In this document: one piece after another, positions 46,701-49,700 of the stretch | Layout: every line of letters begins with the position of its first letter | Position numbering within the stretch: position 1 is the first letter of the stretch | Source: Escherichia coli | GTDB lineage: Bacteria > Pseudomonadota > Gammaproteobacteria > Enterobacterales > Enterobacteriaceae | Reading direction: 5' to 3' (one strand) | Length of the DNA stretch: 64,000 nt | NCBI RefSeq assembly: GCF_003334355.1 | Contig: NZ_QOWP01000001.1 | Position numbers: made by a program

Positions 46701-49700
46701 ATACGATAAATATGCGCGCCTTGCTGGCGAGCGACTGCAATTTAGTGACAACGGGTTAACACCGTTTGGCACCTGTATTGATGAAGTGTATTCCGCCACC
46801 GAAGGCCGGATCGGCAATAAAAAAGTGATTCTGGCCGGGACCAATAATTATCTCGGTTTAACCTTTAATCATGATGCCATCAGCGAAGGTCAGGCCGCGT
46901 TAGCGGCCCAAGGTACCGGCACCACCGGTTCTCGTATGGCAAACGGCAGTTATGCGCCGCACCTGGCGTTAGAGAAAGAGATTGCCGAGTTTTTCAATCG
47001 CCCTACCGCTATCGTTTTTTCAACCGGTTATACCGCTAATTTAGGCGTCATCAGCGCACTTGCCGACCATAACGCCGTGGTGTTACTGGATGCCGACAGC
47101 CACGCCAGTATTTATGACGCCTGTTCTCTCGGTGGCGCGGAAATTATTCGTTTCCGCCATAACGATGCTAAAGATCTGGAACGGCGCATGGTTCGCCTCG
47201 GTGAACGGGCGAAAGAGGCGATTATCATCGTTGAGGGTATCTACAGCATGCTCGGTGACGTTGCGCCGTTAGCGGAAATTGTTGATATCAAACGTCGTCT
47301 CGGTGGTTATTTGATTGTCGATGAAGCGCATTCGTTTGGCGTGTTAGGCGCAACGGGGCGCGGACTGGCTGAAGCTGTCGGCGTTGAAGATGATGTGGAT
47401 ATTATCGTTGGCACCTTCAGTAAAAGTCTGGCCTCGATTGGCGGTTTTGCTGTCGGTTCGGAAGCGATGGAAGTGCTGCGCTACGGCAGCCGCCCGTATA
47501 TTTTTACCGCCTCTCCTTCTCCGTCCTGCATTGCGACCGTGCGCTCGTCGTTAAGAACTATTGCCACACAACCAGAGCTGCGGCAAAAGCTGATGGATAA
47601 TGCCAACCATCTGTATGACGGTCTGCAAAAACTGGGTTATGAGTTAAGTTCACATATTAGCCCGGTAGTGCCGGTAATAATCGGTTCGAAAGAGGACGGT
47701 TTACGCATCTGGCGCGAGCTTATTTCGCTGGGCGTTTATGTGAATCTTATCCTGCCACCTGCCGCGCCTGCAGGCATCACGCTGCTGCGCTGTAGCGTAA
47801 ACGCTGCTCACAGTCGTGAGCAAATCGATGCCATCATTCAGGCATTTGCTACTCTGAAGCAGTAATGTGAGCCCGCCGTGGTGTTGCGCCACGGCGGGTT
47901 TAATGTTGTCTGTCATACCAATACACCAGGCTCAACGCCACCAGCACAAACGCTATCGGTAAACCGAGCGCGGTAACAGGTGCGCTCAACGCAAATAGCA
48001 ATCCCAGATTGACCATGATTTGATAGCTGATCCAGGTGAGTAAGCCAACGATGACACCTACAGCGAGACGGCTACCCATCCCTGGCGAGCGCGGGGCGCT
48101 AAAGGTAAACGGCACAGCCAGCAAAATCATCGCCAGGGTCAGGATGGGTTGCCCCAGTTTTTCCCACAGTGCAAGGCGGTATTCGCTGCTGGGTTGCCCG
48201 GTTTCCTGCAAATAATGGATGTAATGATTAAGCTAACGGACAGAAAAAGTATTGCCCGGCATTGATAACTCTTCAAGATCCATACTGGTGAAGGCCGATT
48301 GCCAGGCAAGATTATCTAATGTTTCCAGCGTTTCTTTGCCATTCAGCCATTTTTTATGATTCACACCATGCAGGATCCACGTTTTGTCGTCTTCAATGGT
48401 GGCACTGCGTGCATAAATGTAGGATTCGAGCGAGAGATCGTCGCGATAATGAAAAATCTCCACGCCCACCGGCTGGCCCTGCTCGTTCAGCGATTTCACC
48501 GTCACAAATTCATTACCACGCCTGGCCCACAGCATATTGCCGGTAATGTCATCGTCCTCCCCCAACGCGGTGGCGGTCGATTTGATTTGCAACGCCTGTT
48601 GCTGTAATGGCGACGCTACCCACTCATCTATCGCGCCTAACGAAACAGTCCACAATATCCCTGCAACCAGCGCCACCAGTGCAATACGGAAGATAGAAAA
48701 CCCCATGCTGCGAATGGCGGTAAGCTCACTGTTTTTCGATAACTGCCCCAGGCCGACAATCCCTCCCAATAAGGCGATAAATGGCGAAAGTTCGACCAGT
48801 GTGCGCGGTAAGGTCATTAGCACCACCAGCACCGCCTGAGTCCAGCGATAACCGCCCGGGCTGACATCATCCAGTTCGTTAATCAGGTTGAAGGTGGTAA
48901 AAAGCGGCAGCAATAGCCCTGCGGCGGCGGCAAAACCGAGAAAGAGATGACGGATTAAATAGCGGCTGAAAACATTCATCGGGAAAATTTCTGCAGCAAA
49001 GAGAAGTCGCGTGCGACCAGCATCAGCAGGCCCATTAGCATGAGTCCGGGTACTAACCACAAACCAGGAATGAGGGGAATCGCGCCGTTAGCCACCAGCG
49101 TACGGCAGACGTCACCGCCATAAAAAATGGCAATAAACAGCAACGTCAGTGGCAATAACGTTGAAAATCGCCCTTGCCGCGGTTTTACCCGACTTAATGA
49201 AATGGCCAGCAGCGCCATCAACAATGCGGTCAGGCCACGGCTTTGCCGCCATTGCAGTTCGGCATGATCGGCCGGAAAGACGGAGCGCGCCAGCTCCGTG
49301 ACCGATTTTGCTTTGCGTTTGACGTTAGGGCTTTGATCCAGCGGATTCAGATGTAATTGCAGATTACGGTAGATCTGTTCGTTGTCGTCACGCCCCTGAT
49401 GATCGAGAAGATAGGCGGTGCCGTTGTGCAACATAACGGTCGGTTTCTCGGGAGATGGGTCAACCACATCAACCGAACGGGCACGGAAAATGCGGGTTCG
49501 ATTGGCAGTAGAAGTATAAATCAGCGCGTCAGTCAGGCGATTATTATCCTGATCAACCGTCTGCGAAAGGATCATTCGTCCGTTATCGTTAGTGTTAAAT
49601 TTCTTTGCCCGCAACTGGCGAACATCCAGCTCCGACTGCGACTGCTGCTCCAGTTGATAAATCTGCGCATAAGCCCACGGACGACCATACATCGACAGAA

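What the first reader, a model, noticed from the sequence alone, without database searches (positions are those of the whole stretch)
48233..48235. Single in-frame TAG inside the LptG-like permease gene
The two track ORFs 48233-49060 and 47900-48211 are in the same frame, separated by one TAG and 7 sense codons. Joined, they give a 359-aa protein that aligns over its full length with LptG-type permeases. The stop falls before the last transmembrane segments, so the truncated product is probably non-functional.
Basis: seen in the sequence. Interest (0 to 1): 0.6.

Follow-up and report, generated by a model that had tools for sequence, protein, structure and literature searches.

The report
Nonsense mutation in sphingolipid-locus LptG paralog
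One C-to-T change has turned a glutamine codon into a stop codon in an accessory E. coli membrane-transporter gene (a second copy of LptG inside the sphingolipid gene cluster); it is a real, inherited but ordinary young pseudogene found in one small lineage.

Summary
On the minus strand, TAG at 48233-48235 is codon 249 of a 359-codon gene (47900-48979). With that codon repaired, the product matches the LptG model end to end. The gene differs from the intact allele of strains WG5 and AR_0369 by one base, CAG to TAG (Q249*).

The stop is not a read error. It is shared by the closest complete genome, PSS-12, where RefSeq already marks the gene "pseudogene, internal stop". It also occurs in three further independent datasets. 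It is rare: 1 of 3,699 complete E. coli genomes with this segment carries it, and 879 carry the exact CAG version.

The stop removes transmembrane segments 4-6, so the product is very probably dead.

The gene is not housekeeping LptG (28% identity). It is the LptG2-type paralog in the E. coli sphingolipid locus (yghO, aasR, epi, acpR, spt, lptF2, lptG2), a locus absent from about a quarter of E. coli, including K-12.

The sister genome has no Gln amber suppressor (glnV and glnX are wild type).

Side observations:
- Two more independent CAG-to-TAG mutations (sslE, gspF) occur in this small clade.
- aasR carries an A3-motif substitution, Y166D.
- Changes in this clade from glcF to yghR are mostly nonsynonymous.

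Verdict: an ordinary, already annotated kind of event; low interest.

The parts
47900..48979 (-). lptG2-type gene (LptG paralog of the sphingolipid locus). It has 359 codons plus the stop and is a pseudogene because of the internal TAG.
   Evidence: Translation. RefSeq marks 'lptG, pseudogene, internal stop' in sister genome PSS-12. 28% identity to K-12 LptG.
48233..48235 (-). Amber stop TAG at codon 249. It derives from CAG (Gln) by a C>T transition, which is G>A at 48235 on the + strand.
   Evidence: The gene differs from the WG5 and AR_0369 allele by exactly this one base. CAG is present in 6 of 6 compared loci. Only 1 of 3,699 genomes has the exact TAG 71-mer. 879 genomes have the exact CAG 90-mer.
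48236..48979 (-). Codons 1-248, the part still translated: TM1-3 plus the periplasmic domain.
   Evidence: Hydropathy peaks at 8-30, 50-78 and 99-117. Alignment to solved LptG chains. This exact 248-aa product is deposited for several assemblies.
47900..48232 (-). Codons 250-359 plus the stop: an untranslated remnant that encodes TM4-6.
   Evidence: Hydropathy peaks at 275-293, 305-327 and 335-353. Reading the sequence shows no Shine-Dalgarno-like sequence ahead of TTG 48211 or ATG codon 281. PSS-12 carries a further change here, E266A at 48183.
48976..50046 (-). lptF2-type partner gene, intact. Its stop overlaps the lptG2 start as ATGA.
   Evidence: TIGR04407 317 bits against cutoff 230. ORF list. 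29% identity to K-12 LptF over a partial (268-residue) alignment.
47868..47902 (.). GC-rich hairpin between the convergent lptG2 and spt genes. lptG2 is the last gene of its transcription unit, so the stop has no downstream gene to affect.
   Evidence: Terminator-like site with 16 pairs. Gene order.
42263..47865 (.). Sphingolipid synthesis genes next to the pseudogene: yghO (aca/ceramide synthase, 42263-43405, -), aasR/FAAL (43814-45502, +), epi (45499-46413, +), acpR (46445-46693, +) and spt (46693-47865, +). All are open reading frames in the window.
   Evidence: Spt NF047599 599 bits against cutoff 500, and FAAL NF006624 862 bits against cutoff 600. aasR matches PDB 3PBK, described as Fatty Acyl-Adenylate Ligase, at near identity. 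Gene roles come from PMC9386255.
50077..53626 (-). Upstream genes on the same strand: YtfJ-family (50077-50640), hypothetical 274 aa (50649-51473), YghQ-like MOP flippase (51473-52822) and YghR-like P-loop protein (52868-53626).

Best explanation
A spontaneous C-to-T transition changed Gln249 (CAG) to amber (TAG) in lptG2. This gene is the LptG paralog that, with lptF2, sits in the E. coli sphingolipid locus next to spt, acpR, epi, aasR and yghO.

The mutation arose once in the ancestor of a small clade and is inherited. The clade includes the window's strain, PSS-12, GCA_003293365.1 and a few read sets.

Translation stops after residue 248. The fragment keeps TM1-3 and the periplasmic domain but lacks TM4-6. 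It therefore cannot build the LptF2/LptG2 membrane cavity, and the transporter is lost (inferred). The gene is a very young pseudogene, one base from an intact allele. Because it is the last gene of its unit, nothing downstream is affected.

The locus is dispensable in E. coli and shows other signs of decay in this clade. The event is ordinary gene loss, not a recoding signal.
For: Shown:
- In-frame TAG at codon 249.
- One-base difference from the intact allele, with CAG in all six compared loci.
- Full-length LptG homology across the stop.
- Three hydrophobic segments lie after the stop.
- The same TAG is in PSS-12. That genome differs from the window by 15 SNPs, one 1-bp indel and an IS1-linked deletion, so it is a different assembly.
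- The same TAG is in Logan ERR4578542, which is identical to the window over 6.7 kb; in ERR10677920, which is PSS-12 type; and in GCA_003293365.1, which is the basal type.
- RefSeq flags the gene as 'internal stop'.
- 1 of 3,699 genomes has the TAG 71-mer, and 879 have the exact CAG 90-mer.
- The locus is missing from 1,307 of 5,426 genomes. In K-12, an IS5 sits where it would be.
- Changes specific to this clade from glcF to yghR are 13 nonsynonymous or nonsense against 4 synonymous. In hybC they are 0 against 3 (Fisher p = 0.03).
- PSS-12 has an extra E266A downstream of the stop.
- GCA_003293365.1 has IS1 sequence in place of acpR.
- glnV and glnX of PSS-12 carry the wild-type CUG anticodon.

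From the literature: in Caulobacter, LptF2 and LptG2 form a complex that binds LptB and is needed for sphingolipid export (bioRxiv 10.64898/2026.04.12.717747). E. coli Spt, AcpR and AasR from this locus are active enzymes (PMC9386255).
Against: - No protein or expression data exist, so loss of function is inferred from topology.
- I did not see reads for the window's own assembly.
- Low-level natural readthrough of UAG followed by C cannot be excluded. This rests on my own knowledge and was not measured.
- Amber suppressor tRNAs other than glnV and glnX (tyrT/V/U, serU, leuX, trpT, prophage tRNAs) were not examined, and none were examined in the window's own genome.
- The dN/dS contrast rests on only 20 mutations.
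Confidence: 0.93

Rival explanations
1. Sequencing or assembly error: the true base is C and the gene is intact.
For: The window carries one suspicious homopolymer difference elsewhere. One G is missing from the GGG run in tRNA-Phe at 15652, compared with PSS-12 and AR_0369. The assembly may therefore not be flawless.
Against: - The TAG is a substitution, not a homopolymer indel.
- It lies outside GATC and CCWGG methylation contexts.
- It is present in at least four other independent datasets that differ from one another at nearby SNPs.
Confidence: 0.02
2. The stop is read through and full-length LptG2 is still made. This could happen through an amber suppressor tRNA in this clade, or through programmed or leaky readthrough. 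The gene would then remain functional.
For: - Three independent CAG-to-TAG changes occur in about 30 kb of two sister genomes: lptG2 (shared), sslE Q927* (window only) and gspF Q170* (PSS-12 only). A Gln-inserting suppressor would make all three nearly silent.
- The TAG is followed by C, a comparatively weak termination context (my own knowledge).
Against: - glnV and glnX in PSS-12 are wild type with anticodon CUG.
- The stop is not conserved: 1 of 3,699 genomes has it. It is therefore not a programmed signal.
- The lineage's mutation spectrum is dominated by G:C>A:T, 10 of 11 tip SNPs. For that spectrum CAG>TAG is a common nonsense route. By my own arithmetic from typical E. coli codon usage, about 1.3 nonsense events would be expected among roughly 25 neutral changes, against 3 seen. 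This is not a strong excess.
- E. coli has no pyrrolysine system (established knowledge).
Confidence: 0.03
3. The gene works as two pieces: a 248-aa N-terminal half plus a separately initiated C-terminal half (103 aa from TTG 48211). This would be a functional split permease.
For: An in-frame TTG lies 7 codons after the stop, and gene callers do list a 103-aa ORF there.
Against: - There is no Shine-Dalgarno-like sequence ahead of the TTG or the next ATG (sequence).
- Orthologs are single polypeptides.
- The 103-aa 'protein' hits in public data are artefacts of scaffolds with 100-N gaps. Those scaffolds carry CAG.
- PSS-12 has already picked up a nonsynonymous change in the remnant.
Confidence: 0.02

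Closest known systems
Caulobacter crescentus LptG2/LptF2 (CCNA_01213/01214; CC_1155/1156), the sphingolipid-locus paralogs of the LPS permeases
   Same: - It is a second LptF/LptG pair encoded beside spt, acpR, aasR, epi and the ceramide synthase gene.
- There is no LptB paralog in the locus.
- It is proposed to export sphingolipid from the inner membrane using the housekeeping LptB.
- The bioRxiv paper states that lptF2/lptG2 occur in many sphingolipid loci of alpha- and gammaproteobacteria.
   Different: - Here the gene is broken.
- I did not compare sequences directly with the Caulobacter proteins.
- No LptC2 is seen in the E. coli locus.
- In the papers read here I found no report that E. 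coli makes or exports sphingolipid natively.
- In Caulobacter, lptG2 loss is lethal unless spt or cpgB is removed. This clade lives with spt intact.
Housekeeping E. coli LptG (b4262, PDB 6MHU chain G)
   Same: Same family and length (359 against 360 aa), same 3+3 TM layout, and the same translationally coupled lptF-lptG arrangement. It scores above the NCBIfam LptG cutoff, which is why PGAP names it 'LptG'.
   Different: Only 28% identity, a different chromosomal locus, and accessory rather than essential (absent from 24% of genomes).
Other natural losses of this locus: the K-12 IS5-associated deletion, IS1 in acpR in GCA_003293365.1, and truncated lptG2 fragments in public assemblies
   Same: All show that the locus is dispensable and decays repeatedly in E. 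coli.
   Different: Those are insertion or deletion events. This one is a clean single-base nonsense mutation that leaves everything else intact.

Membership tests
LptG permease family (NCBIfam TIGR04408 / Pfam PF03739) | Full-length match above the curated cutoff | tested here: met
   The repaired protein scores 308.3 bits against a cutoff of 240, over profile positions 2-350 of 351. Solved LptG chains match at E about 1e-41.
LptG permease family (NCBIfam TIGR04408 / Pfam PF03739) | Six TM segments arranged 3+3 around a periplasmic domain | tested here: met
   Hydropathy shows three segments before residue 120 and three after residue 275. The fold of the middle domain is inferred from alignment only.
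LptG permease family (NCBIfam TIGR04408 / Pfam PF03739) | Adjacent, co-oriented LptF partner | tested here: met
   The lptF-like gene at 48976-50046 scores TIGR04407 317 bits, and its stop overlaps the lptG2 start as ATGA.
Housekeeping LPS exporter LptG (ortholog of b4262) | Orthology to K-12 LptG: near-identical sequence and the pepA-lptF-lptG locus | tested here: not met
   28% identity. The gene lies between yghQ-like and spt, not next to pepA.
Sphingolipid-locus LptG2 | Encoded within the spt/acpR/aasR/epi/ceramide-synthase cluster | tested here: met
   Gene order. Family assignments. Locus definition from PMC9386255.
Sphingolipid-locus LptG2 | No dedicated LptB-type ABC ATPase in the locus | tested here: met
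   The neighbours YghR, YghS and YghT are annotated as ATP-binding or dTMP-kinase proteins, not ABC ATPases. YghR, the only one tested, gives just a weak dTMP-kinase match.
Sphingolipid-locus LptG2 | Forms a complex with LptF2 and LptB and is needed for sphingolipid export | not testable with these tools
   Shown only for Caulobacter.
Sphingolipid-locus LptG2 | Closer in sequence to Caulobacter LptG2 than to LptG | not tested
   No Caulobacter sequence was fetched.
Pseudogene by nonsense mutation | In-frame stop where orthologs have a sense codon, confirmed in independent data | tested here: met
Pseudogene by nonsense mutation | No cognate suppressor tRNA in the genome | tested here: inconclusive
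   glnV and glnX of sister genome PSS-12 are wild type. Other tRNAs and the window's own genome were not examined.
Programmed stop-codon readthrough or recoding | Stop codon conserved among orthologs | tested here: not met
   Only 1 of 3,699 complete genomes has it. All sampled orthologs have CAG.

The most novel reading that the evidence does not exclude
The clade tolerates amber codons. Three independent CAG-to-TAG mutations (lptG2, sslE, gspF) persist in two sister genomes because a suppressor tRNA outside the glnV/glnX locus, for example on a prophage, reads UAG. LptG2 would then still be made at full length.

A milder variant: the clade is a natural lptG2 knock-out with spt intact. It survives because aasR Y166D, in the A3 adenylation motif, has already shut down sphingolipid synthesis. 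That would mirror the synthetic lethality reported in Caulobacter.
Probability: 0.04. Interest if true: 0.55.

Novelty: already known. Interest (0 to 1): 0.12.

Why it matters
Taken alone, it matters little. It is a lineage-specific nonsense mutation in a dispensable accessory gene, and RefSeq already flags it in the sister genome.

Its modest value is as a natural allele. Recent work in Caulobacter reports that losing LptG2 is lethal while anionic sphingolipid is made. Here an E. coli clade carries lptG2 Q249* with spt, acpR and epi intact. It also carries a substitution in the conserved A3 motif of the acyl-ACP synthetase AasR. Such isolates could show whether E. coli makes and exports a sphingolipid at all, and whether synthesis must be lost before or with the exporter.

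The case also shows that PGAP's name, 'LPS export ABC transporter permease LptG', is applied to a paralog that is very probably not the LPS exporter.

Tried and rejected
1. **supE-type suppressor.** I searched all complete genomes with the glnV sequence carrying a CUA anticodon. 155 genomes matched exactly; the 30 rows listed were mostly K-12-derived laboratory strains, and that was too many to see whether PSS-12 was among them. I then located the glnX-glnV cluster of PSS-12 by synteny. Both genes have CUG, so this idea is rejected for Gln.

2. **Public occurrences of the truncated product.** The 248-aa protein is 'on 12-20 contigs', but 7 of the 10 places shown are contigs that simply end at nucleotide 745 or 746 and carry CAG. 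The 103-aa C-terminal ORF 'on 104 contigs' comes from metagenome scaffolds with 100-N gaps and CAG. Only L014, L015 and L016 are true TAG carriers.

3. **Methylation-motif or homopolymer error.** The contexts of all 20 lineage SNPs show no GATC, CCWGG or homopolymer pattern.

4. **Window equals PSS-12.** Rejected. There are 15 SNPs, one indel and a 6.5-kb segment (sslE, pppA, gspS2) that PSS-12 has lost next to an IS1.

5. **Reinitiation or split gene.** No ribosome-binding sequence is present.

6. **Literature search on 'yghQ/yghO'.** It gave nothing on this locus's function. The sphingolipid papers were found through 'serine palmitoyltransferase' plus 'LptG'.

Full report
**1. The observation**

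Read on the minus strand, the window has ...TTT TCT GTC CGT TAG CTT AAT CAT TAC ATC CAT TAT TTG CAG GAA....
- The TAG occupies 48233-48235.
- Seven sense codons follow (48212-48232).
- Then comes the TTG that opens the mechanical ORF 47900-48211, in the same frame as ORF 48233-49060.
- Translating 47900-48979 gives 359 codons with a single internal stop at codon 249.
- The GTG at 49060 is only an upstream extension. The real start is ATG 48977-48979, which overlaps the TGA of the preceding lptF-like gene as ATGA. RefSeq uses this same start in related genomes.

With codon 249 set to Gln, the protein matches NCBIfam LptG (TIGR04408) in one stretch over 2-350 of 351 positions, at 308 bits against a curated cutoff of 240. 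It also matches solved LptG chains from Vibrio, Pseudomonas, Enterobacter, E. coli, Shigella and Klebsiella over essentially its whole length, at E about 1e-41.

**2. Where the window comes from, and whether the stop is real**

The closest complete genome is E. coli PSS-12 (NZ_AP027697.1; human faeces, Ecuador). The window is not that record.
- It differs by 11 SNPs in 32615-64000 and by 4 SNPs plus one 1-bp indel in 1-26146.
- It retains a 6.5-kb segment (26147-32614; sslE, pppA, gspS2, the start of gspC) that PSS-12 has lost next to an IS1.

PSS-12 nevertheless has the same TAG, and RefSeq annotates its gene as 'lptG, pseudogene, internal stop'.

The exact 71-mer around the TAG occurs in 1 of 3,699 complete E. 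coli genomes that have this segment. The 90-mer with CAG occurs exactly in 879. The gene differs from the intact allele of WG5::TT12A and AR_0369 (WP_001318997.1) by exactly one base, C745T. All six compared loci have CAG.

The exact 248-aa truncated product is in the public protein collection. I inspected the contigs that encode it.
- True TAG carriers are Logan ERR4578542 (identical to the window over 6.7 kb, including the window-specific SNP at 50630), ERR10677920 (PSS-12 type) and NCBI GCA_003293365.1 (TAG but neither tip SNP, so basal).
- The other seven places are contigs that merely end at nucleotide 745 or 746 and carry CAG.
- The 103-aa C-terminal 'protein' hits are scaffolds with 100-N gaps, also with CAG.

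The stop is therefore a real, inherited allele of a small clade, not a read error.

**3. What the gene is**

It is not the essential LPS permease. It shares 28% identity with K-12 LptG, and the neighbouring gene shares 29% with K-12 LptF over a partial (268-residue) alignment.

The locus lies between glcC and pitB. On one strand it reads yghO, then aasR, epi, acpR and spt. On the other strand, convergent with these, it reads yghR-like, yghQ-like MOP flippase, a 274-aa hypothetical, a YtfJ-family protein, lptF-like and lptG-like.
- Spt passes the SPT equivalog model, at 599 bits against a cutoff of 500.
- The ligase passes the FAAL model and matches PDB 3PBK, described as Fatty Acyl-Adenylate Ligase, at near identity.

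This is the E. coli sphingolipid cluster described for BL21(DE3) (ECD_02850-02854). Its Spt, AcpR and AasR were shown to be active, and yghO is assigned as the N-acyltransferase (PMC9386255).

In Caulobacter the same kind of locus encodes second copies of LptF, LptG and LptC (PMC11324152). A 2026 preprint reports three things (bioRxiv 10.64898/2026.04.12.717747):
- LptF2 and LptG2 form a complex that binds the housekeeping LptB.
- They can only be deleted when spt or cpgB is absent.
- lptF2/lptG2 occur in many alpha- and gammaproteobacterial sphingolipid loci.

By position and family, the broken gene here is the E. coli LptG2. I did not compare it directly with the Caulobacter protein. The locus is accessory: it is absent from 1,307 of 5,426 complete genomes. 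In K-12, an IS5 sits where aasR through the 5' part of yghQ would be.

**4. Consequence**

Hydropathy shows three hydrophobic segments before residue 120 and three after residue 275. This agrees with the alignment to solved LptG. Codon 249 lies in the conserved 'S-x-x-x-L-x-x-Y-[IV]-x-Y-L' stretch that precedes TM4.

The 248-aa product keeps TM1-3 and the periplasmic domain but lacks TM4-6. Loss of function is inferred, not measured.

lptG2 is the last gene of its unit and is followed by a strong hairpin shared with the convergent spt. No polar effect is therefore expected. Nothing resembling a ribosome-binding site precedes the TTG at codon 257 or the ATG at codon 281. A split, two-piece protein is unlikely.

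**5. Could it be read through?**

The stop replaces a Gln codon, so a supE-type suppressor would restore the wild-type protein. I located the glnX-glnV cluster of PSS-12. Both genes have the wild-type CUG anticodon.

Other possible amber suppressors (tyrT/V/U, serU, leuX, trpT, phage tRNAs) were not checked, and the window's own genome outside the window is not available. The stop is not conserved, so a programmed signal is excluded.

**6. Context in this clade**

I polarised changes with four outgroups (CP131_Sichuan, AR_0369, STEC276, HS). The 31-kb stretch 32615-64000 has 9 changes shared by the window and PSS-12, 4 specific to the window and 7 specific to PSS-12. Of the 11 tip changes, 10 are G:C>A:T.

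The coding effects are as follows.
- From glcF to yghR there are 13 nonsynonymous or nonsense changes against 4 synonymous.
- In hybC there are 0 against 3 (Fisher p = 0.03).

This fits relaxed constraint on the glc and sphingolipid genes in this clade, but the numbers are small. Three individual changes stand out.
- aasR Y166D (44309, shared) replaces the aromatic residue of the A3 core motif DIA-Y-LQYTSGST. This residue is Y in 3PBK and F in the cyanobacterial homolog.
- PSS-12 has E266A downstream of the stop.
- GCA_003293365.1 has IS1 where acpR should be.

Two further, independent CAG>TAG mutations exist: sslE Q927* in the window (29570-29572) and gspF Q170* in PSS-12 only. With a G:C>A:T-dominated spectrum, CAG>TAG is a common route to a stop. 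My own estimate from typical codon usage is about 1.3 nonsense events among roughly 25 neutral changes. Three is therefore notable but not compelling.

**7. Verdict**

This is an ordinary, recent, lineage-restricted nonsense mutation in an accessory paralog, and it is already flagged as a pseudogene in the public annotation of the sister genome.

It is of slight interest as a natural lptG2-null allele with spt intact, given the Caulobacter finding that such mutants are inviable while anionic sphingolipid is made. It also shows that the PGAP label 'LPS export ABC transporter permease LptG' is attached to a gene that very probably does something else.

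Noticed in passing
window 29570-29572 (minus strand), within sslE 27770-32350: sslE, the lipoprotein metalloprotease secreted by the neighbouring T2SS, also has a single in-frame TAG (Q927*). STEC276, HS and CP131_Sichuan have CAG at this codon. PSS-12 has lost this whole segment next to an IS1.
   Followed up: partly
window 21218-21220 (minus strand), gspF 20504-21727: The window has CAG here, but the sister genome PSS-12 has TAG (gspF Q170*, 'internal stop' in RefSeq). This is the third independent CAG-to-TAG event in this small clade within about 30 kb.
   Followed up: partly
window 44309 (aasR/FAAL 43814-45502, + strand): Y166D, shared by the window and PSS-12, replaces the conserved aromatic residue of the adenylation A3 motif (DIA-Y-LQYTSGST; Y in PDB 3PBK). 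It may impair the first step of sphingolipid synthesis in the clade that also lost lptG2.
   Followed up: partly
window 38500-54600: Changes specific to this clade are concentrated in glcF-glcD and the sphingolipid locus, and they are mostly nonsynonymous: 13 against 4 synonymous, compared with 0 against 3 in hybC. Ten of 15 window-versus-PSS-12 SNPs fall in 13.6 kb (binomial p = 0.0005). Ten of 11 tip SNPs are G:C>A:T. The cause is undetermined; it could be relaxed selection, recombination or local mutagenesis.
   Followed up: partly
window 15584-15658 (tRNA-Phe, pheV), position 15652: The tRNA-Phe gene lacks one G of the acceptor-stem run CCGGGCACC compared with PSS-12 and AR_0369. This is either a damaging 1-bp deletion or a homopolymer error in the assembly.
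   Followed up: partly
window 26147-32614: This segment (start of gspC, gspS2, pppA, sslE) is present in the window. In PSS-12 an IS1B copy sits between glcA and a shortened gspC in its place.
   Followed up: partly
L016 (GCA_003293365.1, NRWB01000157.1), locus 5300-5836: Another TAG-clade isolate has IS1 sequence where acpR should be, immediately after spt. This is further decay of the same locus.
   Followed up: no
L034 (PSJ-14, NZ_AP027626.1), lptG 432-1556: A strain from the same Ecuadorian collection carries an in-frame 45-nt tandem duplication in lptG2 (GQPSSEYRLALWEKL twice), just downstream of codon 249. It is annotated as an intact 374-aa protein.
   Followed up: partly
L013 (K-12 MG1655, NC_000913.3 3130146-3131340): In K-12, an IS5 sits where aasR through the 5' part of yghQ lie in other strains. 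K-12 therefore lacks spt, acpR, epi, aasR, lptF2 and lptG2, and keeps only yghO and a shortened yghQ.
   Followed up: partly
L017-L033 (public contigs and scaffolds): Many unrelated assemblies break within a few bases of codon 249: contigs end at nucleotide 745 or 746, and metagenome scaffolds have 100-N gaps ending about 25 nt upstream. Much of this is selection by the exact-protein look-up. Whether there is also a real assembly hotspot here was not examined.
   Followed up: no
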